This document shows positions 23,086 through 50,221 of a DNA stretch of 64,000 nt, piece after piece. The stretch comes from a virus (taxonomy: Duplodnaviria; Heunggongvirae; Uroviricota; Caudoviricetes), in the IMG/VR virus record IMGVR_UViG_3300032294_002926. One strand, 5' to 3'. The notes beneath the pieces were generated by a model that did not search any database, was not told the origin of the DNA, and worked only from the letters and a program-made list of their open reading frames with translations. Position 1 is the first letter of the stretch. Every line of letters begins with the position of its first letter. Made by a program: the position numbers and the translations under genes.

Positions 23086-23565
23086 TTGGTAAAAATCATG
23101 ATCACCAAATCTCAACTTGAACAAAAGATTACTGAACTTGAATCCGAACTTCAGGAATTCAAGTCTCAGTTGAATAATTATTCTGAAATTACACTAGAGA
23201 ACTCCAAACCCGGTGATACTCTATCTAATGGAACTGTAGTGATTCATAAGGAATGCAATCGGATTTTGATTGCAGCACCAAAAGAGACTGTAGTGTACTC
23301 TAAATGGACTCCAGAATTTCCAGAAGTATTTGAATCCCTTAAGTCTCATGGATTCATTCCTTCTCAGTGGCATGTTCCTACTATACAGGAAATGAGACTT
23401 GCTTATGAGAATGCAAAAGAATCTTTCTCCGCCGCCAATTATTGGTCTTCTGCGGAGACTAGTGCTACTTGCGGTTGCATTCTGTACTTTGGCTATGGTA
23501 ATACGTACGGCGGCACTAAGCCGAACACCTTCTGCGTGCGTGCCTTCCGGTGGGTGACAGTTTAA
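23086..23565 (+). CDS. DUF1566 (Lcl C-terminal-like) domain protein with an N-terminal coiled coil; paralog 1
   Basis: WHVPTIQEM...YWSSAETS...FCVRAFRWVTV matches the DUF1566 consensus. Confidence 0.5.
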   Translation: MVKIMITKSQLEQKITELESELQEFKSQLNNYSEITLENSKPGDTLSNGTVVIHKECNRILIAAPKETVVYSKWTPEFPEVFESLKSHGFIPSQWHVPTIQEMRLAYENAKESFSAANYWSSAETSATCGCILYFGYGNTYGGTKPNTFCVRAFRWVTV

Positions 23566-23632: not shown

Positions 23633-24100
23633 ATGATCACCAAAACTCAACTTGAACAAAAGATTACTGAACTTGAATCCGAACTTCAGGAATTCAAGTC
23701 TCAGTTGAATAATTATTCTGAAATTACACTAGAGAACTCCAAACCCGGTGATACTTTGTCCGATGGAACCGTTGTTATCTTCAAAGAATGTAATCGAATT
23801 CTGATTGCTGCTCCAAAAGAGACTGAAGTGTACTCTAAATGGACTCCAGAGTTCTCAGAAGTCTTTGAATCTCTGAAATCTCATGGATTCACCCCTTCTC
23901 AGTGGCATGTTCCCACGATTGAGGAACTTAAACTCGCATATAAGAATGCAAAAGACTCTTTCTCCTCCGCCTATTATTGGTCTTCTACGGAGATTAGTGC
24001 TGCTATCGGTTGTTCTCTGTACTTTGGCTTTGGTAATACGTACAACTTCACTAAGACGGGCACCTTCTGCGTGCGTGCCTTCCGGTGGGTTACTATTTGA
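23633..24100 (+). CDS. DUF1566 domain protein; tandem paralog 2 (~75% identical to 23086..23565)
   Basis: Near-identical N-terminus ITKTQLEQKITELESELQEFKSQLNNYSEITLENSKPGDTL; C-terminal FCVRAFRWVTI. Confidence 0.5.
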   Translation: MITKTQLEQKITELESELQEFKSQLNNYSEITLENSKPGDTLSDGTVVIFKECNRILIAAPKETEVYSKWTPEFSEVFESLKSHGFTPSQWHVPTIEELKLAYKNAKDSFSSAYYWSSTEISAAIGCSLYFGFGNTYNFTKTGTFCVRAFRWVTI

Positions 24101-26010: not shown

Positions 26011-27036
26011 ATGAAAAAATACGATGTAATTGTTTTTATTGGTAGATTTCAACCATTTCATAATGCTCATTTAGAGATCATTAAACGAGCAACAGAACTT
26101 GCAGAACACATTGCAATTATTGTTGGATCTGCAAATCAACCCAGAACATTTAAGAATCCTTTCTCTTATGAGGAAAGAGAAGATTTAATCAATAAAACTT
26201 TAATGATGATGAAGATGAACACTAATTACAGTATTCATCCAAACCAAGATACTATTTACAATGACGATTCTTGGGCAACAAGAGTTCAAAATGTTGTAAA
26301 CAAAATTAATCCTTTTGAAAGTTCTAGAATTGGAATCATTGGGCATAAAAAGGACGAGTCTTCTTTCTACCTTGATATGTTTCCTCAATGGAACTTAATT
26401 GAAGTTCCTTTGATTGAAGAATTAAGTGCATCTCAGATTCGTCAACTTTATTTTAAACGAGACTTTAATTCAAATTTTATTAAGAATGTTCTTCCTCAAG
26501 AAGTTCTGGACTTTCTCAATAAATTTTCTCAAACAGAAGATTATCAACAAATTCTGAAAGAGATTAATTTTGTTGAGAAATACAAATCTCAATATGCTTC
26601 TTTCCCATATCCTCCAACCTTCGTGACTGTGGATGCTGTTATAGTGCAATCGGGGCATATTCTAATGATTCGTCGTCGTGCAGAACCTGGAAAAGGACTT
26701 CTTGCTCTACCTGGTGGATTCTTAGACGCTTTGAGTGATAAATCTTTAGAGGATGCTATGATACGGGAGGTAAGGGAAGAAACTCAACTCAAGGTGCCTG
26801 CTCCAGTTCTTCGTGGTAGTATTGAGGAAGCAAAAGTTTTTGATGCTATTGAACGTAGCACAAGAGGTAGAACAATCACTCATGCATTTCACATCAAACT
26901 TCCTAACGGAGAACTTCCAAAAGTGAAGGGAGGAAGTGATGCTACATCTGCAAAGTGGATTCCAATTTCTAAAATCACTCCAAATGAGTGCTTTGAAGAC
27001 CACTATGAAATCATTAATTATTTTACTGGAGTCTAA
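26011..27036 (+). CDS. Bifunctional NMN adenylyltransferase / Nudix ADP-ribose pyrophosphatase (NadM-Nudix, NatV-like)
   Basis: N-terminal VIVFIGRFQPFHNAHLEII (HxGH nucleotidyltransferase); C-terminal Nudix box GGFLDALSDKSLEDAMIREVREETQL. Confidence 0.8.
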   Translation: MKKYDVIVFIGRFQPFHNAHLEIIKRATELAEHIAIIVGSANQPRTFKNPFSYEEREDLINKTLMMMKMNTNYSIHPNQDTIYNDDSWATRVQNVVNKINPFESSRIGIIGHKKDESSFYLDMFPQWNLIEVPLIEELSASQIRQLYFKRDFNSNFIKNVLPQEVLDFLNKFSQTEDYQQILKEINFVEKYKSQYASFPYPPTFVTVDAVIVQSGHILMIRRRAEPGKGLLALPGGFLDALSDKSLEDAMIREVREETQLKVPAPVLRGSIEEAKVFDAIERSTRGRTITHAFHIKLPNGELPKVKGGSDATSAKWIPISKITPNECFEDHYEIINYFTGV

Positions 27037-27711: not shown

Positions 27712-28248
27712 ATGACTATTAATAAAACAATTCTGTTGAACACCGATTCTTACAAGTTTTCGCAATACAATCAATATCCCGAAGGGACTACGAATGTATA
27801 TTCCTATGTAGAAAGTCGTGGAGGTACTTGGAACCAAACTGTTTTCTTCGGACTTCAAATCTTTCTGAAAGAGTATCTGTCTAATCCTATTACTCAGGAT
27901 GATATTGATACCGCAGAACTTATTACTCAAGCACACGGAGAACCTTTCAATCGTGAAGGTTGGGAGTATATTCTTCGTGAACACGGTGGTAAGTTGCCTA
28001 TTCGTATTAAAGCAGTTCCCGAAGGTTCTGTAATTCCTGTAAAGAATGTTCTTGCGACTGTTGAGAACACTGACCCTCAATGTGCCTGGATTACAAGTTA
28101 CATTGAGACTTCACTTCTCAGGAGTATTTGGTATGGAACTACTGTTGCTACCAACTCTTATGAGAGCAAGAGGATTATTCACGATTACTTGGTGAAGACT
28201 GGAGACCCAAGTTTGATTGAGTTCAAACTGCACGATTTCGGTGCTTAA
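27712..28248 (+). CDS. nadV: Nicotinamide phosphoribosyltransferase (NadV/NAMPT), exon 1; reading frame runs into an in-frame stop inside the intron
   Basis: LLNTDSYKFSQY...KLHDFG aligns with the NAMPT N-terminus up to the conserved HDFG(Y/A)RGVSS junction. Confidence 0.8.
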   Translation: MTINKTILLNTDSYKFSQYNQYPEGTTNVYSYVESRGGTWNQTVFFGLQIFLKEYLSNPITQDDIDTAELITQAHGEPFNREGWEYILREHGGKLPIRIKAVPEGSVIPVKNVLATVENTDPQCAWITSYIETSLLRSIWYGTTVATNSYESKRIIHDYLVKTGDPSLIEFKLHDFGA

Positions 28249-29171
28249 TTAACTTCGGGCACCTAACTTTGTGAACTGCTGGAACCCCTAAGTTGCTTAG
28301 GTAATATGGAAATCAGCATCCAAGACTACTATTTTAGTAGTAAGGTTCAGAGACCATCGAAAAGGTTATTTACAAATAACACTTAGTAGAGTACACTCAA
28401 GCGAGTGGAAGCGCAAAGGCGATACTATGTATCGTAAGATATGGTCCAATCTTCATTGAAAAATGAAGCAGTTCATACTCAGCATAAATACTTCCAGACC
28501 AAAATTGTAAAATATTTATGTTGAAACTATTAGAAACTATACCTAGTTTAGAAACATTTAAGGGGTATTCGATTTCAGATGATGGTAGAATCTTTTCACA
28601 TAAGACTAACAAATTTCTGAAAACGAGTATAAGAATGGGAAATGGATGTGCTTATGGAAGAATTGGATTAAACGATTCTAACGGAATCCGTAAAACAATT
28701 TCAATTCATAGACTCGTTTGTTTAGCATTTAAATATAACCCCAACCACAAAAATCTAACTGTGAATCACATAGACGAAAACACTTTTAATAATCATATTG
28801 ATAACTTAGAGTGGATGCCTCTTTCTGAAAACATTAGATATTCTCAGGCAAACAAAAGTTATGTCGGAGACCCAGATAAACTTACATTAGAGTTTAATGA
28901 AGGAAACTACACGGTACAGGAGTTTGCCAAAAAGTATAATACTCCATTAAATACTATGTGGGATATTCTAAACAAATTAGGTTCAGTCAAAAACAACAAA
29001 AAAAGAAGAGTCTTTGGTAAAAAAATACGACTTGAAATTGCTTTAATGAGAAAATCAGGAAAAGCACTAAAAGAAGTATCTGAAAAGTATCAATGTTCTC
29101 AATCTTTTGTTTCTTTAGTTTTTAAAGAGTATGAACGGGGTATGCTTAGCGAACATGCCTGAATAACTCCG
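28246..29171 (+). mobile_element. Putative group I intron (~0.92 kb) splitting nadV, carrying an HNH homing endonuclease ORF
   Basis: The NAMPT alignment breaks after LHDFG(A) and resumes at RGVSSFESAGIGG ~925 nt later. ~270 nt non-coding structured leader; boundaries follow U (5') and G (3'). Confidence 0.55.
28518..29162 (+). CDS. HNH homing endonuclease (HNH_3 / AP2-domain type, I-HmuI-like) inside the nadV intron
   Basis: SIHRLVCLAFKYNPNHKNLTVNHIDENTFNNHIDNLEWMP is the HNH_3 core; C-terminal helix-turn-helix-like basic tail. Confidence 0.7.
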   Translation: MLKLLETIPSLETFKGYSISDDGRIFSHKTNKFLKTSIRMGNGCAYGRIGLNDSNGIRKTISIHRLVCLAFKYNPNHKNLTVNHIDENTFNNHIDNLEWMPLSENIRYSQANKSYVGDPDKLTLEFNEGNYTVQEFAKKYNTPLNTMWDILNKLGSVKNNKKRRVFGKKIRLEIALMRKSGKALKEVSEKYQCSQSFVSLVFKEYERGMLSEHA

Positions 29172-29177
29172 CGAGGA

Positions 29178-30014
29178 GTGTCCTCTTTTGAGTCTGCTGG
29201 TATCGGTGGTCTCGCACACCTTGTAAACTTCAAGGGAACGGATACAGTCACCGCTCTTCTTTACGGTAAAGAATACTACGACATTTATATGGCAGGATTC
29301 TCTATTCCCGCCAGTGAACATAGTACCTGCACCTCTTGGGGTAGGGAAGGTGAAGAAGATTCTTACCGTAATATGGTAAAACTCTACGGCAAACCTGGTT
29401 CTCTATTTGCTTGCGTAAGTGATAGTTATAACATTTACGATGCTTGTCATATGTGGGGCACTGTGTTAAAGGATGATATAATCAACTCTGGTGCAACTCT
29501 TGTAGTTCGCCCAGATAGTGGACATCCACCAGAAGTGGTAATAAATTGCCTTCAACTTTTAGACAAATATTTTGGACACACGATCAATGAGAAAGGATTC
29601 AAAGTTCTTAATTATGTTCGTGTAATTCAGGGTGATGGTATTACTCAAGATACGATTGACCGTATTCTTTATAGAGCAATGACTGCTGGTTATTCTTCAG
29701 ACAACATTGCTTTCGGTCAAGGTGGTAAACTGCTTCAGAGTATTGACCGAGACACTCAAAAGTTTGCTATGAAGTGTTCTTCTATTGAAGTTAACGGAGA
29801 GCAACGCGATGTCTATAAGAGTCCGATTACCGATATGGGTAAAGAATCCAAGAAAGGTCGTGTAACTCTCTATCGTAATGATGAAGGTTACTTCACCGAC
29901 TTGGAAGGTAGGACTGATGCGGTAGAAGTTCTTGAAACTGTATTTGAGAAAGGTGAACTGGTCAAAGAATATACCTTTGATGAGGTTCGTAAAAATGCTT
30001 CGGTGATTATCTAA
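29178..30014 (+). CDS. nadV: Nicotinamide phosphoribosyltransferase (NadV), exon 2 (true exon start ~29172 at Arg-Gly-Val; the tracked ORF starts at an internal GTG)
   Basis: [25 protein letters not shown]... matches the NAMPT C-terminal half through to the end. Confidence 0.8.
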   Translation: [278 protein letters not shown]

Positions 30015-31343: not shown

Positions 31344-31823
31344 ATGGAATTCGTCGAACCTCATTCTACTATATTAGTTTTAAATAGTTCATATGAACCA
31401 TTGAATTTTGTAAGTTGGAAAAGAGCAATTGTTTTACTTCTTAAAGAAAAAGCAAAATTGATTTCAAAAAGAACAATTCGTTTGATAAATTTTGTAAAAA
31501 TTCCATCTAAGAACTATAGAAATTATTTTCCAACAAAATCTCTAATTCATAAAAGAGATGATTTTCAGTGCCAATATTGCGGTGCTTATAGAAATCTTAC
31601 AATTGATCATGTAATACCCAAATCTAAGGGGGGTGGAGATACTTGGGATAATCTTGTTTGTTGTTGTTATCGTTGTAATATAAAAAAGGGTGATCTTTTA
31701 TTACATGAAACTGATATGATTCTTCATACCAGACCTTATTCACCTCTAAATCCCCTTCATTTGAAAATGGAAAGAAGTATGGTATCTGAATGGAAAGATT
31801 ATCTAATAGCATCAAAAACTTAA
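31344..31823 (+). CDS. HNH endonuclease (McrA/HNH_5-like)
   Basis: CQYCGAYRNLTIDHVIPKSKGGGDTWDNLVCCCYRCNIKKGD. Confidence 0.7.
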   Translation: MEFVEPHSTILVLNSSYEPLNFVSWKRAIVLLLKEKAKLISKRTIRLINFVKIPSKNYRNYFPTKSLIHKRDDFQCQYCGAYRNLTIDHVIPKSKGGGDTWDNLVCCCYRCNIKKGDLLLHETDMILHTRPYSPLNPLHLKMERSMVSEWKDYLIASKT

Positions 31824-32058
31824 TAGAAATTTCATTTTTCATGTGTGCACTTTTAAAACTGTCACACTGTTTTGATTAAACTTAAAATATGGTATATAAT
31901 ACCTAAGCACTATAAGATGAATCTTTGACTTTATCTGATGTGTAACTACCGAATTTTATTTCAATAATTTCTAAAAGTTTATTGAAATAAATATCATGAA
32001 GTAATAATGTCTAATACATAATTACTTCCCTTATACTATCGTTTAGTAAAAAATCTTT

Positions 32059-33561
32059 ATGAAACTTAATTCATTAATTCTTGCATCTGCTGTTCTTGGT
32101 TCAATTTTCCCAGTTTCTTCTAATGCATCTGAATTAAAAATTTCGGAAGTGTCTCAATACTCTTCTGATCAAGTAACAAGCATCTCTCAATTTAGTGATG
32201 TAAAACCAACGGATTGGTCGTATCAAGCACTGAGTAATCTTATTGAAAGGTATGGTTGCGTTGCAGGTTATCCGAATGGAACCTATGCTGGAAGTCAATC
32301 CATGACTCGCTATGAAGCAGCTGCTCTCTTGAATTCTTGCTTGGATAGAGTAACTGAAGTGACTGATGAACTTAAGAGACTTCTCACCGAATTTTCGAAA
32401 GAACTTTCTGTAATTCGAGGTCGAGTTGATGTTGCTGAAGCGAAAATTGGAGTACTTGAATCAAATCAATTTTCTACGACTACCAAACTTCGTGGAGAAT
32501 CTAGTTTTGTTCTTGGTGGTGTTCCAGGTGCTCGTCTCAATCCAACATCTCTTTATCAAAATGGTCAAAATGTAGGAAATACTGCATTTAATTATGATCT
32601 TCGTCTGAATTTTGATACATCGTTTAATGGTGAAGACTTGCTTCGTACTCGTATCCGATCGGGTAATTTTTCTTCTCAACCATTTGGTTCAAGTTCTTCT
32701 ATTCTGAAATTGGATAAAGCAGAAACCACGACTTCCAATTCAGCGATTATTGATCGCCTTTATTATAGTTTTCCCGCTCTTACTAAAGGTTTGACTCTTA
32801 CTGCTGGTCCACTGGTTCGTAATACTGAAATGGCATGGGTGCCTACTGCATATCGTTCGGAAATCTTGGATTTCTTTACTACTGCAGGTGTTCCAGGTGT
32901 TTATAATAAAGCAACTGGTTCTGGATTCGGCGCACAATGGGTTCAACCTGGAAAAAGAGGTTTTGTTGCGGGAGTGAACTATGTTGCTCAGAACGGTTCA
33001 GATTCATCCAAAGGTGTATTTGATGAAACTGGTGGGTTGAATGCAATGGTTCAACTTGGTTATCGTGCTCCTAACTATGGTATTGCATTCGGTTACCGTT
33101 ACGGTACTGAAGGGACAAGAGTTCGTACTTATAATGGTCCTTTGGGTGCAAGTGGTGTTCTTACTCCAGAGCAAACTTCGAACGGATATGGAGTGAATGC
33201 ATACTGGCAACCTTCTCAGGGTGGTACTCTTATGCCATCAATTAGTGCAGGATATGGATGGAATACTGTGAGTGATTCGACTTCGATTTCTAACAGTGCC
33301 ACGAATACATCTACGTGGTTTGCCGGACTCCAATGGAGTGACGTGTTTGTGAGTGGAAATTCTGCTGGCGTTGCATATGGTCAACCCGGAAATTATTCTG
33401 GTTTGAGTGATAAAGCATCTCTTCTTGAAATTTTCTATAAATTTAGAGTTGGGGACAATGTGAGTATCACTCCTGCAATCATCTATGTTCAAAATAATCA
33501 AGCATTTAAAGATGTAGAATCTAGATGGGGTGGGATCGTTCAGACGAAATTTACTTTCTAA
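32059..33561 (+). CDS. Cyanobacterial-type outer-membrane porin: signal peptide + SLH domain + OprB-like beta-barrel
   Basis: Signal peptide MKLNSLILASAVLGSIFPVSSNA; SLH motif FSDVKPTDWSYQALSNLIERYGCVAGYPNGTYAGSQSMTRYEAAALL; C-terminal Gly/aromatic-rich alternating beta-strands ending in a terminal Phe (QTKFTF). Confidence 0.6.
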   Translation: MKLNSLILASAVLGSIFPVSSNASELKISEVSQYSSDQVTSISQFSDVKPTDWSYQALSNLIERYGCVAGYPNGTYAGSQSMTRYEAAALLNSCLDRVTEVTDELKRLLTEFSKELSVIRGRVDVAEAKIGVLESNQFSTTTKLRGESSFVLGGVPGARLNPTSLYQNGQNVGNTAFNYDLRLNFDTSFNGEDLLRTRIRSGNFSSQPFGSSSSILKLDKAETTTSNSAIIDRLYYSFPALTKGLTLTAGPLVRNTEMAWVPTAYRSEILDFFTTAGVPGVYNKATGSGFGAQWVQPGKRGFVAGVNYVAQNGSDSSKGVFDETGGLNAMVQLGYRAPNYGIAFGYRYGTEGTRVRTYNGPLGASGVLTPEQTSNGYGVNAYWQPSQGGTLMPSISAGYGWNTVSDSTSISNSATNTSTWFAGLQWSDVFVSGNSAGVAYGQPGNYSGLSDKASLLEIFYKFRVGDNVSITPAIIYVQNNQAFKDVESRWGGIVQTKFTF

Positions 33562-33581
33562 AGAAAATTTTGTCTTCTTAA

Positions 33582-33610
33582 ACACCCTCTGAATCTGGGG
33601 GGTGTTTTTT
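33582..33610 (+). terminator. Rho-independent terminator after the porin gene
   Basis: acaccc-loop-gggtgt followed by T7. Confidence 0.5.
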
Positions 33611-33633: not shown

Positions 33634-34077
33634 ATGGAAAAACTTTTTAAACTTTTGAGTGATTCTCAATCCACGCTTTTTGTACTTTTTCAAAAAACTT
33701 GGATGTATCATTGGAATGTAGTTGGTTCGGATTTTCAACAATTACATACTCTTTTTGGGGACCAATACGAAAAAATGTTTGAAGAGATTGATTCACTCAC
33801 TGAACATATGAGATACTTGGGTATTAAACCTGTAAGTACTCTTTCTAGAATTGTAGAAGTATCTCATATTGAGCAGGCTTCAAATAGTTCTCAGGAAATT
33901 GATTCCAGAGAAATGGTTAGACAATTAAGAGATGATAATAAAAAAATCATTGATTTATTTTCTAGTGTTTCTGAAGAAGCAGATAAGCAAAAACAATTTG
34001 CAACTTCAAATCTTGTTCAGAGTTTAATGGAAACTCATGGAAAATTTCTGTGGATGTTAAGATCAGTATTAGAGTAA
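33634..34077 (+). CDS. dps: Dps-family ferritin-like protein (DNA protection during starvation)
   Basis: LFVLFQKTWMYHWNVVGSDFQQLHTLFGDQYEKMFEEIDSLTEHMRYLG matches the Dps ferroxidase-site helices. Confidence 0.75.
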   Translation: MEKLFKLLSDSQSTLFVLFQKTWMYHWNVVGSDFQQLHTLFGDQYEKMFEEIDSLTEHMRYLGIKPVSTLSRIVEVSHIEQASNSSQEIDSREMVRQLRDDNKKIIDLFSSVSEEADKQKQFATSNLVQSLMETHGKFLWMLRSVLE

Positions 34078-34086
34078 AAGTGTAAA

Positions 34087-34350
34087 ATGGAAAATTTAAA
34101 AGTTCAGTGTCGTTCTTGTGGCAAAGAAATTCAGGCATATTCAAATAAAACCGTAACTTGCGGATGTTCGAATATGACCACTATTTGTGGTGAGAAAATT
34201 TCCGCGATTGATTTGGCGAATGTTATTATGGTGACAGATCCCAAAAGTTTATTTTCATCGAAAACTAATGTTCTTTCAAATGAAGATATTCAATGGCAAG
34301 AAGAAAGAAAGAAAAGAAAAATTCGTAAAATAGATTTTGAAGAGAGATGA
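34087..34350 (+). CDS. Hypothetical small protein with a CxxC...C zinc-ribbon-like N-terminus
   Basis: CRSCGK...CGCSN..CGE. Confidence 0.35.
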   Translation: MENLKVQCRSCGKEIQAYSNKTVTCGCSNMTTICGEKISAIDLANVIMVTDPKSLFSSKTNVLSNEDIQWQEERKKRKIRKIDFEER

Positions 34351-36276: not shown

Positions 36277-37059
36277 GTGATTGGATTTAATTATCTCGGT
36301 CAACATGGTAGATTGGCTAATCAAATGTTTCAATATGCAGCATTGAGGGGGATTGCGGATTATAAAAATTATGAGTTTTGTATTCCACAAACTAATTATA
36401 ATGATAAGTGGAAGGATAATAAGCTTTTTGAAATCTTTGAATTAAAAAATCTTGAGAATATTTGTTATTTACCTGGACAATTTTATCAAGAAAGACAGTA
36501 CCATTATGATGAAGAATATGTTCAAAATTGCCCTGATAATGTAAATTTGCATGGATATTTTCAGACTGAAAAATATTTCAAGCATATCGAGGATAGCATA
36601 AGAGAAGATTTTACTTTTAAGGAATATATACTAGAACCTTGCACTAAAAATTTTAATTTTGATGAAATTATTGCTTTACATGTAAGAAGAACTGATTATG
36701 TCTATAATTCAATAAATCATCCTCTATGTGATATAAATTATTATGATATGGCATTAAAACATTTTGACGATACTATTCCTGTAATGATTTTTTCTGATGA
36801 TATTGAATGGTGTAATATGCAAAATATATTTAAGTCAGATAGATTTTTGGTATCAGAATCATATAATACATATATTGATTTGTGTTTAATGAGTATGTGT
36901 CATTATCATATTATTGCTAATAGTTCTTTTAGTTGGTGGGGTGCATGGTTAGCTAAATCTAAAAAAGTAATAGCTCCCCAAAAATGGTATGGAACTACTG
37001 GCGATACTTCTAAAAATAAAACTCACGATCTTTATTTAAATGAGTGGATTGTTATATGA
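36277..37059 (+). CDS. Glycosyltransferase family 11 (alpha-1,2-fucosyltransferase-like)
   Basis: N-terminal GRLANQMFQYAALRGIA is the GT11 signature (GRLGNQMFQYA). Confidence 0.6.
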   Translation: MIGFNYLGQHGRLANQMFQYAALRGIADYKNYEFCIPQTNYNDKWKDNKLFEIFELKNLENICYLPGQFYQERQYHYDEEYVQNCPDNVNLHGYFQTEKYFKHIEDSIREDFTFKEYILEPCTKNFNFDEIIALHVRRTDYVYNSINHPLCDINYYDMALKHFDDTIPVMIFSDDIEWCNMQNIFKSDRFLVSESYNTYIDLCLMSMCHYHIIANSSFSWWGAWLAKSKKVIAPQKWYGTTGDTSKNKTHDLYLNEWIVI

Positions 37060-37895
37060 GTAATAAAATTGATTTGTCGAAATTAACTTTTTTAATTCCC
37101 ATCAGAATTGATTCTGACGATAGAATTAGAAATATAATTACTGTTCTTTGTTATCTTTTAAAAAATTTTAATACCAATATAATTTTAAAAGAAGTTGATA
37201 ATGAAAAATATTTTCAGAGTTATGCTCTACCTCAGATTAAAGAATTTGTAGAAGATGATATTAATCAATTAGATTATATTTTTGAGAAATCAAATGATCC
37301 TGTTTTTTATAGAATGCAAATCATAAATGAAATGTTGGAACGATCGAAAACTGAAGTTATTGTTAATTATGATTGTGATGTTCTACTAAAACCGGATACT
37401 TATATAAAGTGCTATAATCTAATTATAGATAAAACTTACGATGTAATATATCCTTATGGATTTGGTTATTATCAAAAACAAATTTATGCTAATGATGAAC
37501 TCGTAAGTGAATTTTTAAATAATAATTTTAATTTTTCAATTTTAGAACAACAACAAAATACTGAAATCTCTCAGTATGGACATGTCCAATTTTTTAATAG
37601 AAGAGTTTATATTGAAGGTGGGATGGAAAATGAAAATTTTCGAGGATCTTCACCGGAAGATAAAGAAAGATTTTTTAGATTTAATAAATTAGGATACAAT
37701 GTTGGTAGAATAGATGATCATGTTTATCATTTGGAACATAGTAGAGGCGATAATTCTTGGCCAGTTTCATATCAAAAGAATCCATATATGAAAGAAAATC
37801 TTGAATTGTGGGACTTTTTACAGAGATTGGATAAAAAACAACTTATTAATTACTATACTAGTCAAAAATATTTGAGAAAATATTCTGAGGAATAA
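37044..37895 (+). CDS. Putative glycosyltransferase (family not assigned)
   Basis: Lies within the glycosylation cluster; LTFLIPIRIDSDDR resembles a GT-A N-terminal beta-strand/DxD region. Confidence 0.35.
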   Translation: MDCYMSNKIDLSKLTFLIPIRIDSDDRIRNIITVLCYLLKNFNTNIILKEVDNEKYFQSYALPQIKEFVEDDINQLDYIFEKSNDPVFYRMQIINEMLERSKTEVIVNYDCDVLLKPDTYIKCYNLIIDKTYDVIYPYGFGYYQKQIYANDELVSEFLNNNFNFSILEQQQNTEISQYGHVQFFNRRVYIEGGMENENFRGSSPEDKERFFRFNKLGYNVGRIDDHVYHLEHSRGDNSWPVSYQKNPYMKENLELWDFLQRLDKKQLINYYTSQKYLRKYSEE

Positions 37896-37898
37896 TTT

Positions 37899-39485
37899 AT
37901 GTGGAATTTAGTTACTTTTTCTTATGGCGGAAATATTTTTTCAAATTATCAAAAATTTATTTCCAATTTATTGAAAAGTCAGGGATTAAAATCTTTTGAG
38001 TATGATGTTGAATTTTTAAAAAATACTGAAGTATATAAAAATAACGTAGAATACTTTACAGAAAACAACAAATATGGTTGGTGTTCTTGGAAACCAATTT
38101 TATTACTTGAGACCATGAAAGTATTAGACGATGGAGACAAAATTCTTTTATGTGACGTTGAAGATCTTTTTCATCCAGAAATATTTAATTATGTTGATTC
38201 CGTAATGGAAGATGATCCATGTCTTTTTGTTTTGGGATTTGATAAAAATAAAAAGACTACGAAAAGAGATTGTTTTGTTTTTATGGATTGTGATGATGAA
38301 GATTATTGGAATTCTCCACAACTTGAGGCTGGAGTTACTTTTTGGAAAGTATGTGATGAATCTAAGAGAATCATAAATGAGTGGTTGAAATGGTGTTTAG
38401 ATGAGAGAGTTAATGGAGAAGATTCACATTTCTCTCAAAAAGAAAATTTTCCTGAATTTTCTGGATATTCATCAAAAGATCAAAGTATTTTAACAAATTT
38501 GGCAATAAAAGAAGGTCTTTTTGTCGATAATGGTACTATTAGAAATTACATGGAATGTAATGCTGATTATTGGTATGATAGATATTTTGATAATAAAGTA
38601 AACATATATAGACCCATTGATCAATATATGATTCAAATTCAGAATCAGTGTCCCTATATAAAAGGAAATTTAATTAAACATAGTCTAGTTCTTACAGTTC
38701 ATAATAAAGAGTTTTTAATTAAAAAAGTTATAGATGGAATTGTAAACAACACTACTGGCGATTATGAGTTAATCTTAGTGTTTGATGGATGCATTGATCA
38801 ATCTGAAAAAATTGCTTCTGATATGTTAGAGAACATTGATATAGATTATAAGATATTATATGCATCTGATGTATTCGAAACCAAATCAAATAATATTGGA
38901 TTGAGGGAATGTACTGGTAGATATGCAATTATCATTCAAGATGATATGGTAATTCAGGAACTCGGATGGAATCGTAGAATGCAAAAACCATTCCTAAAGT
39001 TTGATGATGTATTTGCTGTTACTGCTAGAACATCTCACAATTGGATTTATAATGAAGATTCGAAACATATTGGAATGCTTGAGAATCTTGATAATTGCTA
39101 TTGTGATATATTAATACACTGTGATCATTCGGATAAATCTAATACACCAAGAGATACTTTTTCTGTCAGAGGATCTGTAAATAGAGGACCTTTAATGATG
39201 AATCTTGACGATCTTAAAACTTTAAATTATTTTGATGAGGAATACGCTCCGCTTGATATGGATGATCATGATCTTATGTTTAGGGCAAGAACTGAACTTA
39301 ATAAAGTTTGTGGATGTTATTGGATCAATTATCAATCAGAGAGTGAATGGGGTGGTACAAGAATTAATGGATTCCCTGCTCCATGGTATTTAAAATCTCA
39401 ACATAAAAATGTTAAAATATTTTATGATAGATACAAAGATGTTTTGGAATCTTATAGAATTATTGAAAACAGAAAGGTTAGTTAA
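37899..39485 (+). CDS. Large glycosyltransferase with a GT2-like (GT-A fold) domain
   Basis: SLVLTVHNKEFLIKKVIDGIVNNTTGDYELILVFDGCIDQS (GT2 N-terminal signature and DxD). Confidence 0.5.
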   Translation: MWNLVTFSYGGNIFSNYQKFISNLLKSQGLKSFEYDVEFLKNTEVYKNNVEYFTENNKYGWCSWKPILLLETMKVLDDGDKILLCDVEDLFHPEIFNYVDSVMEDDPCLFVLGFDKNKKTTKRDCFVFMDCDDEDYWNSPQLEAGVTFWKVCDESKRIINEWLKWCLDERVNGEDSHFSQKENFPEFSGYSSKDQSILTNLAIKEGLFVDNGTIRNYMECNADYWYDRYFDNKVNIYRPIDQYMIQIQNQCPYIKGNLIKHSLVLTVHNKEFLIKKVIDGIVNNTTGDYELILVFDGCIDQSEKIASDMLENIDIDYKILYASDVFETKSNNIGLRECTGRYAIIIQDDMVIQELGWNRRMQKPFLKFDDVFAVTARTSHNWIYNEDSKHIGMLENLDNCYCDILIHCDHSDKSNTPRDTFSVRGSVNRGPLMMNLDDLKTLNYFDEEYAPLDMDDHDLMFRARTELNKVCGCYWINYQSESEWGGTRINGFPAPWYLKSQHKNVKIFYDRYKDVLESYRIIENRKVS

Positions 39486-39556
39486 AAAATAATAACTCTA
39501 TTTTACTAAATTTATTAAAATGATTAAGGATAAACTTCAAATGGATTTAAATTAAT

Positions 39557-40171
39557 ATGAAAATATCTAGAGAAAGATGGGAATATGCTCAAAGAGCAGA
39601 AATTTCTGAATTGAATGAAAGTACTGATCCTGGAGAAAAAGCATATAAGTATGCTGTAGAAGTAACTTTTAATCTTCTTGGTGCAGATTTACAAAAAGAT
39701 TTCAAAGATAAAGTTATTGTTGAAGTTGGTTGCGGATTTTACCCAGCTCTTCTTTGGACAAAAGATACCAAAAGATCTATTGGCGTCGATCCATTATTTA
39801 ATCAATGGCCTAAAAAATATATTGATAGGTGTAATGAGGCTAGAATTGAAATGATTTCTCATCCATATGAGGATCTTGAGATTGATGAGGATGTTGATGA
39901 AACCTGGTTTTTCAATTGTTTCCAACATGTTATTTCACCTGAAGAACAAATGATAAAATCTATGGAAACTTCTAAAGTTGTCCGTATTTTTGAACCAATT
40001 GGATGGGGGAATGGACTAAATTTAACTGAAAATGATGCTCATCCTCATATTATCACTAAAGAAACTATAATAGATATTATGGGGGATTTTGGATTTGTTT
40101 ATACGGCAAATTCGGTAGAAAAATTTCACCAAGCTGAATGTTATTACGGGACATGGAGTAAAACTAAATGA
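39557..40171 (+). CDS. Putative SAM-dependent methyltransferase-like protein (paralog A)
   Basis: VIVEVGCGFYPALL is a motif I-like glycine loop. Confidence 0.4.
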   Translation: MKISRERWEYAQRAEISELNESTDPGEKAYKYAVEVTFNLLGADLQKDFKDKVIVEVGCGFYPALLWTKDTKRSIGVDPLFNQWPKKYIDRCNEARIEMISHPYEDLEIDEDVDETWFFNCFQHVISPEEQMIKSMETSKVVRIFEPIGWGNGLNLTENDAHPHIITKETIIDIMGDFGFVYTANSVEKFHQAECYYGTWSKTK

Positions 40172-40761
40172 AAATCACTGAAGAACGTTGGGTACAAGCT
40201 CAAGAAGAAGAATTGAGATTGTCTTCTATTAATATTGATCCCAAATATTATGAGATGATGTATTTTACAATGGCAAAATTGATGAATATTGATTTTGATA
40301 CTGATTTTATCGGTAAATCAATAATTGAGATTGGACCAGGACCATTGGGTGTCACTCTCTTAACTGAGAAGTTTTCTAAGGCTATAATTGTTGAACCATT
40401 GATTTATAAATGGGGTCAAGAATACGTAAATCTTTACATGGAAAAAAATATCATTATTGAAACAACTCCTTATGAAAATTTGACAATTGAGGAAAAGGTA
40501 GATGAAACTTGGTTTTTTAATGTTCTTCAACACGTAATTGATCCAGAATTGCAACTAAGAAAAGCGAAAGAGACTTCAAAGGTAGTTAGAATTTTTGAAC
40601 CCATTAATTATCCTATTGAATTAGCCCACCCACATTTGTTGACAAAAGATTTATTTACTGGAATTTTTGGTGAAGATTTTGGCACTACTTACATTGGAAG
40701 TTCAATACCAAATTTTCATACAGCAGATTGTTATTATGGAACTTGGATTAATCCTGGGTGA
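40168..40761 (+). CDS. Putative SAM-dependent methyltransferase-like protein (paralog B, tandem duplicate)
   Basis: IIEIGPGPLGVTLL; shared C-terminus ...ETWFFN..QHVI.PE...K..ETSKVVRIFEPI...HPH..TKE....FG..CYYGTW. Confidence 0.4.
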   Translation: MKITEERWVQAQEEELRLSSINIDPKYYEMMYFTMAKLMNIDFDTDFIGKSIIEIGPGPLGVTLLTEKFSKAIIVEPLIYKWGQEYVNLYMEKNIIIETTPYENLTIEEKVDETWFFNVLQHVIDPELQLRKAKETSKVVRIFEPINYPIELAHPHLLTKDLFTGIFGEDFGTTYIGSSIPNFHTADCYYGTWINPG

Positions 40762-40764
40762 TCT

Positions 40765-41712
40765 ATGTACATAGCATCATGCCCTCTTAGAGTTTCTTTA
40801 TTTGGTGGATCAACAGACAATCCTTATTTTGTGGAAAAATTTGGATATGGATCTGTGATTAGTTTTACTTGTAATCTTAAAACTTATGTAACTATTAGTC
40901 AAGATAAATTTGGATTTAATAGTTATCAGCGCAAATATATTGTCAATTACTCAATAAGAGAAGAAGTGTCCAATATTCATGAGATAAAAAATGATGTGGT
41001 TAGAGTAGTTCTTGATTATTTCAATATGCCTCCAGTTCAAGTAACGCTTACAAGTGATGCATATTCTCAAGGTAGTGGTCTCGCATCTTCATCTTCTTAT
41101 ATTATTAGTTTGATTAAGGCATGTATTCTTTTTCTTGACATTCGTATGACGGATATAGAGATCTGTAAACTTGCCTATGAATTAGAATTGAAATTTAATT
41201 CATATTGTGGATATCAAGATCCTTACGGTTGTGGGATTGGTGGATTTAAAAAAATTGAATTTATTAGGGGTGGAGGTGTTAAATATGATTTTCTCTCCAC
41301 TAAAATGTTTAATAATTATGATGCTCATTTAGTTTTTACTGGAGTTACAAGAAACTCAAAAAATGTTTTAAAAGATATTACAGATAATATCGATAAAGCA
41401 AAACCACTTTTGGGTACACTTGACAAATCCTATAATGCAATTATGCAAGATGATTATGGAACTTTTTTAAATTATCTGAATAAAAGTTGGATTCAAAAAA
41501 AACATACTAGTTCAACTATTACTGAAAACTTAATTATTAAAAATATGGATCAATTTTTGAGTGAAAATGGGACTGTAATATCTCATAAATTATGTGGTGC
41601 GGGTAATGGTGGATTTTTTCTTGTTTTCTCTGAAAAAGGAAACTTGAATATTTCCTATCAATCTGTTAAAATAGATGTAACACCTAATGGAGTTTCTGGG
41701 AAAATGCTATGA
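40765..41712 (+). CDS. GHMP-family sugar kinase (D-glycero-D-manno-heptose 7-phosphate kinase HddA-like)
   Basis: PLRVSLFGGSTDNPYF N-terminal motif; SQGSGLASSSS ATP-binding P-loop of GHMP kinases. Confidence 0.6.
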   Translation: MYIASCPLRVSLFGGSTDNPYFVEKFGYGSVISFTCNLKTYVTISQDKFGFNSYQRKYIVNYSIREEVSNIHEIKNDVVRVVLDYFNMPPVQVTLTSDAYSQGSGLASSSSYIISLIKACILFLDIRMTDIEICKLAYELELKFNSYCGYQDPYGCGIGGFKKIEFIRGGGVKYDFLSTKMFNNYDAHLVFTGVTRNSKNVLKDITDNIDKAKPLLGTLDKSYNAIMQDDYGTFLNYLNKSWIQKKHTSSTITENLIIKNMDQFLSENGTVISHKLCGAGNGGFFLVFSEKGNLNISYQSVKIDVTPNGVSGKML

Positions 41713-42212
41713 ATCCATTTATAGAATATATTGAAGCACTTCAGGGTGCTCATATAGAAGAAGAGTTTGAAAAATTTTATAATGCATTTATCTCTTATTC
41801 AAGAATTATTATTCTCGGTAATGGCGGAAGTAATTCTGTGGCGTCTCATATTTCGCAAGATTATATGAAGTTTCATGGAAAAAAGGTATCTATTCTTTCT
41901 GATCCTTCAATGCTAACCATGTTGACAAATGATTTTGGATATGAGAATGCTTATCAAAAGTTTTTAGAGTATTATGTTGAAAAAGATACACTTGTAATTA
42001 TTGTGAGTTCTGGTGGGGAGTCTAAAAATATGATAAATTCTCAGAAATGGTGTGAAAAAAACAATGTTCCATATGGGGTTCTGACTGGTTTTAAACCGGA
42101 TAATACACTAAGAAAAACTTCAACAAATTCTCTATGGAATTACTATATTAGTAGTTATGATTATGGTGTCGTAGAATGTGTACATCAAATTTTTCTTCAC
42201 GGAGTAGTATGA
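41709..42212 (+). CDS. gmhA: Sedoheptulose-7-phosphate isomerase (SIS domain, GmhA)
   Basis: ILGNGGSNSVASHISQD matches GNGGSAADAQH of GmhA. Confidence 0.65.
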   Translation: MNPFIEYIEALQGAHIEEEFEKFYNAFISYSRIIILGNGGSNSVASHISQDYMKFHGKKVSILSDPSMLTMLTNDFGYENAYQKFLEYYVEKDTLVIIVSSGGESKNMINSQKWCEKNNVPYGVLTGFKPDNTLRKTSTNSLWNYYISSYDYGVVECVHQIFLHGVV

Positions 42213-48069: not shown

Positions 48070-48189
48070 CGGGGGGTGGCCTAATTGGAAAAGGCAACAG
48101 TTAAAAATTTATCTAGATTATAGATAATAACAGCAATTAATAAACCACTAAGAAACAGTTTATTGTAGGTTCGAGTCCTACTCCCCCGA
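48070..48189 (+). ncRNA. tRNA-like element (120 nt) with canonical acceptor, D-arm and T-arm but a ~50-nt AT-rich insertion in place of a recognisable anticodon arm
   Basis: cgggggg/tcccccg acceptor; D-arm gcct-aattggaaa-aggc; T-arm gtagg-ttcgagt-cctac; no complementary anticodon stem found. Confidence 0.3.
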
Positions 48190-50025: not shown

Positions 50026-50125
50026 TATTTGTAGGAAGCGAACACCTCTCTTTGGGTTCTTTGAGAAACTGAATGAAGTGAAAGAGGAGAATTACTTGCG
50101 CTTTAGACTCTCCCTCCTACCCCAT

Positions 50126-50197
50126 ATTCGGGTAGTCTAGTGGTCAGGACGAGCAGACAATGCATATGGAGTTCGGGTTCGATTCCCGATCCGAATA
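50126..50197 (+). pseudogene. Degenerate tRNA-like sequence (Glu/Asp-type D-arm, canonical T-arm, no pairable anticodon stem)
   Basis: Acceptor attcggg/tccgaat; D-arm gtc-tagtggtcag-gac; T-arm tcggg-ttcgatt-cccga; central region agcag-acaatgc-atatg cannot pair. Confidence 0.3.
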
Positions 50198-50221
50198 TTT
50201 GACTAAATATTTATTATCTTT

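What the first reader, a model, noticed from the sequence alone, without database searches (positions are those of the whole stretch)
32059..33561. Phage-encoded cyanobacterial-type porin (SLH + OprB-like barrel)
The ORF has a Sec signal peptide, an S-layer-homology motif and a long Gly/aromatic-rich C-terminal region. The sequence ends in Phe, the signature of Omp85-targeted beta-barrels. This is the architecture of Synechococcus/Prochlorococcus Som porins. A virus-encoded outer-membrane porin could remodel nutrient uptake during infection or alter receptor availability (superinfection exclusion). The region is noticeably less AT-rich than its surroundings, consistent with host acquisition.
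Basis: partly seen in the sequence, partly recalled or inferred. Interest (0 to 1): 0.7.

Follow-up and report, generated by a model that had tools for sequence, protein, structure and literature searches.

The report
Cyanophage copy of host phosphate-island porin
A large cyanobacterial virus carries an intact, selection-maintained copy of the outer-membrane pore that its hosts keep next to their phosphate-uptake genes, which suggests the virus boosts nutrient entry at the outer membrane of infected cells.

Summary
ORF 32059-33561 (+) encodes a 500-aa protein with a Sec signal peptide, an SLH domain, a helical stalk, a predicted 16-strand OprB-type barrel and a C-terminal Phe. It scores 265 bits on NCBIfam por_somb (cutoff 100). 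The window is a T4-like cyanomyovirus.

The gene is not a recent pickup. Its GC3 is 22%, like other window genes and unlike cellular porins (83%). The 82 viral copies analysed form one clade (100/100 bootstrap), with dN/dS about 0.23. The putative constriction loop L3 is as conserved as the SLH domain.

New here: the closest cellular porins (freshwater Cyanobium/Prochlorococcaceae, at most 57% identity) sit in a phosphate island directly upstream of pstS. 42 of 83 viral loci keep the same porin-pstS order. The window copy has lost pstS and now abuts a Dps gene.

Best reading: a functional outer-membrane porin and wall tether made in infected cells. It most likely supports phosphate entry, and possibly iron entry.

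Only one cultured phage (S-SRM01) has a full-length homologue. It is annotated "porin" but never discussed in the papers I could search. I rate it a new member of a known kind, of moderate interest.

The parts
31344..31823 (+). Free-standing HNH endonuclease gene directly upstream (context; possible driver of local gene shuffling)
   Evidence: Pfam HNH_5/HNH E about 1e-13; phrog_16726 E=3e-54. A homologue lies upstream of the porin in L004 (65%) and L003 (42%).
31872..31900 (+). Sigma-70-like promoter match TTGATT-17-TATAAT (10 of 12)
   Evidence: This is a consensus match only; the region as a whole has no excess of such sites over shuffles.
31986..31993 (+). AATAAATA, a T4-type late-promoter-like octamer just 5' of the hairpin
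   Evidence: Read from the sequence. CTAAATA/ATAAATA occupies the same position in many related leaders. Its function is inferred.
31998..32028 (+). Leader hairpin (GAAGTAAT...ATTACTTC plus an inner 4-bp stem)
   Evidence: RNAfold dG -9.5 kcal/mol, z=-4.4. A hairpin sits at the same place in most of the 38 unique related leaders, with at least 8 unrelated stem sequences (median dG -10; 20 of 38 with z<-2).
32032..32037 (+). -10-like hexamer TATACT immediately 5' of the conserved motif
   Evidence: Read from the sequence. The equivalent position in relatives reads TATAAT, CAGTAT, TACAAT or CATTAT. Inference.
32039..32048 (+). Conserved porin-leader motif TCGTTTAGTA, 20 nt before the ATG
   Evidence: It is the only exact hit in the window; one-mismatch hits are at chance level. 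It occurs 19-27 nt upstream of the ATG in 48 of 82 viral loci (strict pattern) and 65 with a relaxed pattern, and in 0 of 79 cellular loci.
32059..33561 (+). Porin CDS (500 aa plus stop)
32059..32127 (+). Sec signal peptide (aa 1-23, predicted cleavage SNA|SE)
   Evidence: Sequence inspection; A23 is invariant in 60 homologues.
32191..32322 (+). SLH domain (aa 45-88) with a TRYE motif at aa 83-86
   Evidence: Pfam SLH E=1e-8. Matches the OmpM1 SLH/stalk (8BYM) at E=1.5e-12. Mean conservation in the viral clade is 0.91.
32323..32469 (+). Helical (coiled-coil type) periplasmic stalk (aa 89-137)
   Evidence: AF2 helix at aa 84-137; aligned to the OmpM1 stalk.
32479..33558 (+). 16-strand OprB-type beta-barrel (aa 141-500)
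   Evidence: Pfam OprB. AF2 gives 16 strands with barrel pLDDT about 80. Foldseek top hit is OprB 4GEY at E=1.4e-12, followed by OmpF and OmpM1.
32815..32919 (+). Loop L3 (aa 253-287), the putative pore-constriction loop
   Evidence: It is the longest loop, has a fixed length of 35 aa in all viral copies, and its conservation (0.91) equals that of SLH. The assignment comes from the model topology; parts of the loop have pLDDT below 50.
33529..33558 (+). C-terminal beta-signal-like strand ...GGIVQTKFTF
   Evidence: F498 is invariant and F500 at least 90% conserved.
33580..33607 (+). Intrinsic terminator (12-bp stem, 5 G-C pairs, followed by a T-run)
   Evidence: 47 of 54 unique viral downstream flanks have a hairpin of <= -8 kcal/mol plus a T-run.
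33634..34077 (+). Dps (mini-ferritin) gene, 73 bp after the porin stop
   Evidence: Pfam Ferritin E=7e-23. PDB Dps 8FF9 E=1.2e-17, with the HWNVxGxxFxxLH motif aligned. Within 6 kb downstream of the porin in 29 of 83 viral loci and in no cellular locus.
34087..34350 (+). Small Cys-rich ORF (CxxC...CGC) that follows Dps in the related phages inspected
   Evidence: phrog_8074 E=6e-25; homologues sit after Dps in the viral loci.

Best explanation
The gene encodes a functional outer-membrane porin of the cyanobacterial SLH-OprB type, expressed by a T4-like cyanomyovirus inside infected freshwater-type picocyanobacteria. Proposed steps, all inferred: the precursor is exported by Sec and inserted into the host outer membrane by BamA through its C-terminal Phe signal. 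Its SLH domain and stalk attach it to the cell wall, and its 16-strand barrel forms a diffusion channel. The gene descends from the porin that sits directly upstream of pstS in the hosts' phosphate island, and half of the related phage loci still carry porin-pstS together. The most likely benefit is therefore to keep or raise phosphate flux across the outer membrane to PstS/PstCAB while the phage replicates its DNA. Small cations such as iron may also pass, and the tether function is retained. The architecture, ancestry, selection and synteny are shown here. The localisation, substrate and fitness effect are inferred.
For: Architecture: Pfam SLH + OprB; NCBIfam por_somb 265 bits against a cutoff of 100; AF2 stalk plus 16 strands; Foldseek top hits OprB, OmpF and OmpM1. 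Phage residency and age: the window carries phage hallmark genes; GC3 is 22% against 83% in cellular porins; 82 viral copies form one clade at 100/100 NJ bootstrap. Maintained function: median dN/dS is 0.23 and the maximum 0.41; L3 and SLH are both 0.91 conserved, while surface loops are 0.51-0.65. Phosphate link: pstS lies 250-357 bp downstream in 9 cellular loci, all inside the 14-member sister group (100/100). Those loci read Na/Pi cotransporter (L087 only)-CorA-CHAD-porin-PstS x3, with Pho boxes in the porin-pstS spacer. 42 of 83 viral loci keep porin-pstS, with Pho-box-like repeats in the spacer. The phage porin-linked PstS is 64-66% identical to the cellular porin-linked PstS but only 52-56% to marine cyanophage PstS. 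Literature: the SLH/OprB porin Slr1908 is PhoB-bound and induced 4.6-7.5-fold by P deficiency (PMC11126600). P-SSM2 g247, immediately upstream of pstS, is co-induced under P limitation (bioRxiv 10.1101/2021.07.20.453049). The S-SRM01 latent period is 6-8 h.
Against: The window copy has no pstS within 64 kb and no Pho box upstream (17 of 24, p=0.33). Even in the cellular sister group the Pho box lies before pstS, not before the porin. The NCBIfam label is 'iron uptake porin' and the immediate neighbour here is Dps. No expression, localisation or conductance data exist for any phage copy. The AF2 model has only moderate confidence (pLDDT 66.8, and below 50 in parts of L3). The trees are NJ on the 80 best hits per collection, not ML on full sampling.
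Confidence: 0.6

Rival explanations
1. It is an iron-acquisition module. The porin admits inorganic iron, and the adjacent Dps stores or detoxifies it for iron-demanding phage enzymes such as RNR, 2OG-Fe(II) oxygenases and PSII repair.
For: NCBIfam names the family 'iron uptake porin'. Dps starts 73 bp after the porin in the window and lies within 6 kb in 29 of 83 viral loci. Loss of Slr1908 lowers cellular iron by about 40% (PMC8707739).
Against: Dps is absent from all cellular porin loci, so the pairing arose inside phages. In most phages pstS and two small ORFs separate the two genes. In the window a strong terminator separates them. The family name is a broad subfamily label, and orthology to Slr1908 was not tested.
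Confidence: 0.12
2. It is mainly an envelope tether. The phage supplies an SLH-anchored outer-membrane protein to keep the outer membrane attached to the wall, which limits vesiculation or premature leakage after host gene expression is shut off. The pore is secondary.
For: The SLH domain and stalk are highly conserved and match the tethering porin OmpM1. The marine/estuarine phages S-PM2 and S-CREM1 keep signal peptide + SLH + stalk with only a short C-terminal region ending GLG(F/I)KF and no OprB barrel. [quoted passage not shown] The slr1908 mutant hypervesiculates.
Against: L3 and the barrel strands are as conserved as SLH, and L3 length is invariant. That is not expected if only anchoring mattered. 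The pstS synteny points to transport.
Confidence: 0.13
3. It remodels the cell surface for superinfection exclusion or grazing protection. The phage porin displaces or masks host porins that serve as receptors.
For: Surface loops L1, L6, L7 and L8 are the most variable parts. A protective role was proposed for the S-PM2 SLH protein (PMC2984593). The window also carries a large glycosyltransferase block.
Against: Variable surface loops are typical of all porins. Loop lengths are largely inherited from the cellular sister group. No known receptor link exists, and this reading does not explain the pstS pairing.
Confidence: 0.1
4. It is a non-functional hitch-hiker or a virion component.
For: None specific. 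The gene has no PHROG family.
Against: The ORF is intact in 82 viral copies analysed, with dN/dS about 0.23, fully phage-like codon usage, its own terminator and a conserved leader. Structural matches are all porins.
Confidence: 0.03

Closest known systems
Synechococcus phage S-SRM01 'porin' (QPX48248.1; MW015081 184931-186391)
   Same: Full-length homologue at 68% identity, within the same viral clade. Dps and the same small Cys-rich ORF lie downstream, the leader motif is the same, and a terminator-like hairpin follows the gene.
   Different: Two small ORFs lie between its porin and Dps, and about 900 bp upstream is unannotated. It is the only cultured phage with the gene. The describing paper does not mention porin, Dps, iron or pstS.
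Phosphate-island porins of freshwater/brackish Cyanobium and Prochlorococcaceae (e.g. Cyanobium sp. ATX 6A2, L087)
   Same: They are the sister group (100/100), with the same compact length (about 495 aa) and loop plan, and lie directly upstream of pstS as in half of the phage loci.
   Different: Identity is at most 57%, with GC3 about 83% against 22%. They lack the phage leader motif (0 of 79) and have no Dps neighbour. The island contains three tandem pstS genes plus CHAD, CorA and (in L087) a Na/Pi transporter.
Synechocystis SLH/OprB porins Slr1908 and Slr1841
   Same: Same domain architecture. They have a dual role in ion/iron uptake and outer-membrane stability, and slr1908 is PhoB-regulated (PMC8707739, PMC11126600).
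   Different: They are chromosomal genes of a distant cyanobacterium. Orthology to the phage clade was not tested here.
OmpM1 of Veillonella parvula (PDB 8BYM/8BYS/8BYT)
   Same: SLH + stalk + 16-strand porin barrel. There is sequence similarity over the SLH/stalk (E=1.5e-12) and fold similarity over the barrel (E about 1e-10).
   Different: It comes from a different phylum, barrel identity is about 12%, and the top barrel match here is OprB (4GEY).
S-PM2 p170 'putative S-layer protein' and S-CREM1_199 'iron uptake porin'
   Same: They share the signal peptide, the SLH domain (50-54% identity), the stalk, a hairpin-containing leader and a C-terminal Phe.
   Different: They are only 279-292 aa with no detectable OprB barrel. 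After the stalk comes about 165 aa of Gly/aromatic-rich sequence. They are not next to pstS.
P-SSM2 gp247 (DUF680), proposed 'porin-like' partner of phage PstS
   Same: It sits immediately upstream of phage pstS and is co-induced with it under P limitation. The idea of a phage pore feeding PstS was proposed for it.
   Different: It is 118 aa with no significant similarity to this porin (E=0.5) and is too small for a 16-strand barrel.
Porins of lambdoid prophages (Lc of PA-2, NmpC); from my own knowledge, not tested here
   Same: They are phage-borne general porins expressed in the host outer membrane.
   Different: They are OmpC/OmpF-family proteins from temperate phages (lysogenic conversion) with no SLH tether. 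BFVD also holds OmpC-like and OprO/P-like phage proteins, at only 10-14% identity over partial alignments.

Membership tests
Cyanobacterial SLH-OprB porins (NCBIfam NF033921 por_somb; Som/Slr1908 type) | Whole-protein score above the curated family cutoff | tested here: met
   265.2 bits against a cutoff of 100, covering aa 39-500 of the protein and positions 1-485 of 485 in the profile.
Cyanobacterial SLH-OprB porins (NCBIfam NF033921 por_somb; Som/Slr1908 type) | A single N-terminal SLH domain with a TRAE-type motif | tested here: met
   Pfam SLH at aa 45-88, E=1e-8. The motif is TRYE at aa 83-86: T83 and R84 are at least 90% conserved and E86 is invariant.
Cyanobacterial SLH-OprB porins (NCBIfam NF033921 por_somb; Som/Slr1908 type) | OprB-type beta-barrel | tested here: met
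   Pfam OprB at aa 104-500, E=3.9e-13. AF2 gives 16 strands. The Foldseek top hit is OprB 4GEY.
Cyanobacterial SLH-OprB porins (NCBIfam NF033921 por_somb; Som/Slr1908 type) | Sec signal peptide and a C-terminal aromatic beta-signal | tested here: met
   Sequence inspection and conservation of A23, F498 and F500. No dedicated predictor was available.
Cyanobacterial SLH-OprB porins (NCBIfam NF033921 por_somb; Som/Slr1908 type) | Outer-membrane localisation, trimer formation and channel conductance | not testable with these tools
   These need fractionation with mass spectrometry, native PAGE or cryo-EM, and bilayer or liposome-swelling assays.
Phosphate-stress (Pho-regulon / P-island) porin | Genomic linkage to pstS or other phosphate-uptake genes | tested here: inconclusive
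   Met for the clade (42 of 83 viral loci; 9 cellular loci, all in the sister group, inside a phosphate island). Not met in this window, which has no pstS in 64 kb.
Phosphate-stress (Pho-regulon / P-island) porin | Pho box (three YTTAAYYW repeats at 11-bp spacing) in its promoter | tested here: not met
   The window upstream region scores 17 of 24, p=0.33. Only 22% of phage porin upstream regions reach p<=0.05. Cellular sister porins show none upstream; their Pho boxes lie before pstS.
Phosphate-stress (Pho-regulon / P-island) porin | Anion/phosphate permeation and induction under P limitation | not testable with these tools
   These need electrophysiology and infection transcriptomics under +P and -P.
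Iron-selective porin (Slr1908 type) | Orthology to Slr1908, iron-responsive regulation and iron selectivity | not tested
   Only the NCBIfam subfamily name and the Dps adjacency point this way.
Phage auxiliary metabolic gene (host-derived, maintained in phage) | Located in a bona fide phage genome, with cellular homologues as the outgroup | tested here: met
   Phage hallmark genes flank it. The viral clade is nested beside a cellular sister group.
Phage auxiliary metabolic gene (host-derived, maintained in phage) | Purifying selection and adaptation to the phage genome | tested here: met
   dN/dS median 0.23; GC3 22% against 83% in hosts; a phage-specific leader and terminator.
Phage auxiliary metabolic gene (host-derived, maintained in phage) | Expressed during infection | not testable with these tools
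   The only indirect evidence is that the short S-PM2 SLH homologue is reported as early and abundant (PMC2984593).
OmpM-type outer-membrane tethering porin | SLH + extended stalk + porin barrel in one chain | tested here: met
   Binding to wall polymers is not testable here.

The most novel reading that the evidence does not exclude
SLH-anchored outer-membrane proteins may be a general cyanomyovirus device for re-tethering and re-surfacing the host outer membrane early in infection. They appear as a full porin in this freshwater-type clade and as a short form in S-PM2 and S-CREM1. They would be driven by a dedicated phage-specific leader (variable hairpin, then a -10-like hexamer, then TCGTTTAGTAC) that acts as a new cis-regulatory element. 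In this reading, control of vesicle shedding, superinfection or envelope integrity is the primary selected function, and nutrient entry is a bonus.
Probability: 0.15. Interest if true: 0.75.

Novelty: new member of a known kind. Interest (0 to 1): 0.55.

Why it matters
Cyanophage phosphate genes (pstS, phoA, phoH) are a textbook case of viral metabolic reprogramming, but all known ones act at or inside the periplasm. A bona fide, selection-maintained outer-membrane porin extends that reprogramming to the outermost barrier. It was captured together with pstS from a host phosphate island and occurs in at least 267 viral contigs. It implies that outer-membrane permeability can limit nutrient supply in infected picocyanobacteria. 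It also gives a far firmer candidate than P-SSM2 gp247 for a "phage pore that feeds PstS". It can be tested in a cultured system, S-SRM01 on Synechococcus KCZYC6. It also warns that porin-bearing contigs can be misread as cellular DNA.

Tried and rejected
1. GC content as a sign of recent transfer: rejected, because GC3 is phage-like.
2. Near-identity DNA search of the region against isolate phages: no match.
3. PHROG assignment for the porin: none.
4. Consensus RNA structure for the leader: MAFFT could not register hairpins of variable position, and RNAalifold gave 0 pairs. The hairpin evidence rests on single-sequence folds. I did not build a covariance model.
5. Leader motif as a general phage signal: rejected. 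There is one exact copy in the window, one-mismatch hits are at chance, and the 14 other copies in 851 kb of viral loci compare with roughly 25 that I estimate by chance.
6. Pho box upstream of the porin: not found in the window, weak in other phages, absent in the cellular sister group.
7. P-SSM2 gp247 as a homologue: rejected (E=0.5).
8. Short SLH proteins as truncated OprB barrels: no OprB signal by Pfam or by a family HMM.
9. 'Phage porins have trimmed surface loops': largely rejected. Compactness is shared with the cellular sister group; only L1 is shorter, and L5 and L6 are longer.
10. Look-up of the source contig for the exact protein: nothing on record.
11. Literature: no paper in the searchable library discusses a full-length cyanophage porin.
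Full report
OBSERVATION. Pfam finds one SLH domain (aa 45-88, E=1e-8) and an OprB porin domain (aa 104-500, E=3.9e-13). NCBIfam NF033921 'por_somb, iron uptake porin' scores 265 bits against a curated cutoff of 100 over the whole mature protein. No PHROG family matches. The N-terminus MKLNSLILASAVLGSIFPVSSNA|SE has the layout of a Sec signal peptide (read from the sequence).

The window is a T4-like cyanomyovirus. It carries psbA (phrog_182, E=3e-178), class I RNR, long tail fibres and an RNA-binding protein. It also has 9 tRNAs called by ARAGORN (10 Rfam tRNA matches) and a PhotoRC-II element before psbA.

STRUCTURE. An AlphaFold2 model built from 60 homologues has mean pLDDT 66.8, with the barrel at about 80 and the N-terminal part low. 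It shows a long helix (aa 84-137) followed by 16 beta-strands (aa 141-499). Periplasmic turns are 3-10 residues and extracellular loops 10-35 residues; the third loop is the longest at 35 aa. Foldseek against the PDB returns only porins: OprB 4GEY (E=1.4e-12), OmpF-family porins and the tethering porin OmpM1 of Veillonella (8BYT/8BYM). By sequence, the SLH + stalk region matches OmpM1 at E=1.5e-12.

IS IT A RECENT HOST PICKUP? No. The gene is 39.9% GC against 32.2% for the window, but its third-codon-position GC is 22.2%. That is indistinguishable from other window ORFs (20.2%, sd 6.8) and far from cellular porins (median 83%). Four other window genes have higher total GC. The raised GC reflects the Gly/Ala-rich composition of a barrel protein.

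DISTRIBUTION AND PHYLOGENY. Among 50,697 deposited phage genomes only S-SRM01 has a full-length homologue (68% identity, annotated 'porin'). S-SRM01 is a freshwater Synechococcus myovirus of 240 kb. S-CREM1 and S-PM2 have short SLH-only relatives. In IMG/VR, 267 contigs encode a relative, several of them 100-215 kb long. The protein database lists thousands of homologues, the best non-identical ones at 74-76% identity. In GTDB representative genomes the best cellular matches are freshwater/brackish Cyanobium and Prochlorococcaceae at no more than 57%.

Viral loci are mostly 33-44% GC (L023 is 52%), and cellular loci mostly 54-70% (L113 is 43%). An NJ tree of 159 porins separates the 82 viral copies (including the window and S-SRM01) from the 77 cellular ones with 100/100 bootstrap. 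Viral-viral identity is 67-100% and viral-cellular identity 49-67%. Pairwise dN/dS among viral copies has a median of 0.23 and a maximum of 0.41. Many of these pairs have dS above 1 (1.2-1.4 for the window against its closest relatives), so the ratio is only approximate, but it stays well below 1. So the gene was acquired long ago, diversified within phages and is under purifying selection.

WHAT IS CONSERVED. Within the viral clade, mean column conservation is 0.91 for SLH, 0.91 for loop L3, 0.86 for strands, 0.80 for periplasmic turns and 0.69 for the other extracellular loops (L1 0.51, L6 0.57, L7 0.59). L3 is exactly 35 residues in every viral copy. In classical porins L3 folds into the barrel and sets the constriction; that is established knowledge, and the assignment here is inferred from the model. 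So both the wall anchor and the pore interior appear constrained, which argues against a pure tether or a decaying gene. The compact size (about 499 aa) is shared with the cellular sister group (about 495 aa) and is not a phage innovation.

THE KEY CONTEXT: A PORIN-pstS PAIR. In many related phages the gene just downstream of the porin encodes a secreted protein of about 325 aa (Pfam PBP_like_2, E=1e-42). It is 52-56% identical to annotated cyanophage PstS proteins. 42 of 83 viral loci have this porin-pstS order. The fullest arrangement is porin-pstS-two small ORFs-Dps-small Cys-rich ORF, seen in 18 loci.

Among the cellular loci analysed, pstS lies 250-357 bp downstream on the same strand in nine. 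A tenth case, L096, has a 5'-truncated porin. All nine fall in the 14-member group that joins the viral clade with 100/100 support. In a cultured Cyanobium (L087) and a MAG (L085) the neighbourhood reads Na+/Pi cotransporter (L087 only)-CorA-CHAD-porin-PstS-PstS-PstS, which is a phosphate island.

The cellular porin-pstS spacers carry three-repeat Pho boxes, for example CTTGACCA-GCC-CTTAACGC-AGG-CATAACGA at 19-20 of 24. Phage spacers carry similar repeats at 20-21 of 24, and 52% of unique spacers reach p<=0.05. The phage porin-linked PstS is 64-66% identical to the cellular porin-linked PstS but only 52-56% to marine cyanophage PstS. That suggests the pair was captured together, independently of the marine phage pstS genes. 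This rests on identities only, not on a tree.

THE WINDOW COPY. Here pstS and the two small ORFs are absent, and no pstS is found in the 64 kb. The porin is followed by a strong intrinsic terminator (33580-33607; 12-bp stem plus T-run) and then, 73 bp after the porin stop, by a bona fide Dps (Pfam Ferritin E=7e-23; PDB Dps 8FF9 E=1.2e-17). The window's closest relatives (L003-L006) also lack pstS; L004 has a DUF401 membrane protein in that slot. The porin is thus kept even where phage pstS is lost. The Dps adjacency looks like a product of deletion within a variable island rather than an ancestral pairing, because Dps is absent from all cellular porin loci.

PHAGE-SPECIFIC FLANKS. The 235-bp upstream spacer contains, in order:
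- a sigma-70-like match at 31872-31900;
- AATAAATA at 31986-31993;
- a hairpin at 31998-32028 (dG -9.5, z=-4.4);
- a -10-like TATACT at 32032-32037;
- the motif TCGTTTAGTA at 32039-32048, 20 nt before the ATG.

The motif lies 19-27 nt upstream of the start in 48 of 82 viral loci (65 with a relaxed pattern) and in none of 79 cellular loci. It occurs once in the window. The hairpin recurs at the same place with at least eight unrelated stem sequences. That favours a selected structure, although a formal alignment-based covariation test failed. S-PM2 and S-CREM1 short SLH genes have related leaders. [quoted passage not shown] There is no Pho box upstream of the window porin. Expression is therefore under phage-type control, not inherited host control. 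The timing is unknown.

MECHANISM, WITH STATUS.
Shown:
- an intact SLH-stalk-OprB architecture with export and insertion signals;
- phage residency;
- old single-clade ancestry from a host phosphate-island porin;
- purifying selection on both pore loop and anchor;
- frequent pairing with pstS.

Inferred:
- Sec export, BamA insertion and wall anchoring in the infected cell;
- diffusion of phosphate, and probably other small ions, to PstS/PstCAB;
- a benefit to phage DNA synthesis during a latent period of hours (6-8 h in S-SRM01).

Literature supports plausibility. SLH/OprB porins carry most inorganic-ion flux and also stabilise the outer membrane (PMC8707739). The 'iron-selective' Slr1908 is directly PhoB-regulated and P-inducible (PMC11126600). 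A pore partner for phage PstS was already hypothesised for P-SSM2 gp247, which is in fact a non-homologous 118-aa DUF680 protein in the same position.

RIVALS. Four alternatives remain open: an iron module with Dps, a primary tethering or anti-vesiculation role, surface remodelling for exclusion, and a non-functional or virion protein. The first three are not excluded and could coexist with transport. The evidence for and against each is given in the rival entries.

NOVELTY. Phage-borne porins exist in other families (and lambdoid Lc/NmpC from my own knowledge). Phosphate auxiliary genes are classic in cyanophages. The S-SRM01 homologue is already labelled 'porin' in GenBank. What I could not find in the searchable literature is any description of four things: a full-length SLH-OprB porin as a cyanophage gene, its breadth in viral contigs, its origin from the host phosphate island together with pstS, or its conserved leader. 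I classify it as a new member of a known kind, with moderate interest (0.55).

LIMITS.
- Trees are NJ on the best 80 hits per collection.
- Habitat metadata were not available.
- The model confidence is moderate.
- Signal peptide and beta-signal calls are by inspection.
- No expression, localisation or transport data exist.

Noticed in passing
window 27712-30014: The nicotinamide phosphoribosyltransferase gene is split. The order is the NAMPT N-terminal part (27712-28248), a group I intron (Rfam RF00028, 28184-28468, 61 bits), an intron-borne HNH/NUMOD4 homing endonuclease (28518-29162), then the C-terminal NAPRTase part (29178-30014).
   Followed up: partly
window 26011-27036: A fused cytidylyltransferase-like + NUDIX protein (NadM-Nudix type) lies just upstream of NAMPT. 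Together they would form a phage NAD salvage pair.
   Followed up: no
window 31986-32048 and the equivalent positions in L001-L082, L002, L163: A conserved phage-specific leader precedes SLH-protein genes: an optional CTAAATA/ATAAATA, a hairpin of variable sequence, a -10-like hexamer, TCGTTTAGTAC, an A-rich tract, then the ATG. It is absent from cellular porins. A second leader type (hairpin, TATAAATA, then YGTAGTTGTAA) occurs in L006, L022, L031, L034, L076 and S-PM2. It could be a promoter or a 5'-UTR element.
   Followed up: partly
L081:8656-9022, L016, L011, L004, L001:7559-7862: Two small conserved ORFs (about 50-70 aa; 'MSLISQRDR...' and 'MKINLWFCKDMNQWRWTLTDDHRP...') sit between pstS/porin and Dps in 36-38 viral loci. 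They have no Pfam match and are missing from the window.
   Followed up: no
L004:5352-6392: In the window's close relative L004, a DUF401 polytopic membrane protein occupies the slot that pstS fills in other phages, so this position behaves as a swap site for envelope or transport genes.
   Followed up: no
literature: PMC3322482 (Paulinella ovalis-like single-cell genomes), contig 7191: An 11.6-kb contig at 7,577x coverage encodes an OprB porin, an ABC-transporter subunit, an HNH endonuclease and RNR-beta, and was interpreted as cyanobacterial prey DNA. That gene set resembles the phage loci seen here, so it may be a cyanophage fragment. This is my inference; the sequence was not examined.
   Followed up: no
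window 23086-23565 and 23633-24100: Two tandem small proteins have weak Lcl_C-like matches (below the Pfam cutoff) and the highest GC3 in the window (0.38-0.41 against a mean of 0.20). They are the best candidates in the window for a genuinely recent acquisition.
   Followed up: no
window 50125-50198 and 48070-48189: ARAGORN calls a tRNA-His with anticodon ATG, which is unusual. Rfam also reports a 120-nt tRNA-like match at 48070-48189 that ARAGORN does not call; it may contain an insertion or intron.
   Followed up: no
window 36277-44634: A long run of same-strand ORFs begins with glycosyltransferases (GT11 and GT2 families), possibly for cell-surface or DNA modification. Only the first three ORFs were scanned.
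   Followed up: no
window 48490-50025 and 21073-22254: An SPFH/Band-7 membrane protein and a tyrosyl-tRNA-synthetase-like protein (phrog_9270) are encoded in the phage.
   Followed up: no
L023 (IMGVR_UViG_3300049846_001206): This 'viral' contig has 52% GC around a porin that nevertheless groups inside the viral clade, and it has a different upstream region. It could be a higher-GC phage lineage, a prophage-like region or a chimera.
   Followed up: no
L087:6722-10187 and L085:6681-11439: The cellular phosphate islands carry three consecutive pstS paralogues downstream of the porin. In L085 the third PBP domain sits in a 716-aa ORF call.
   Followed up: no
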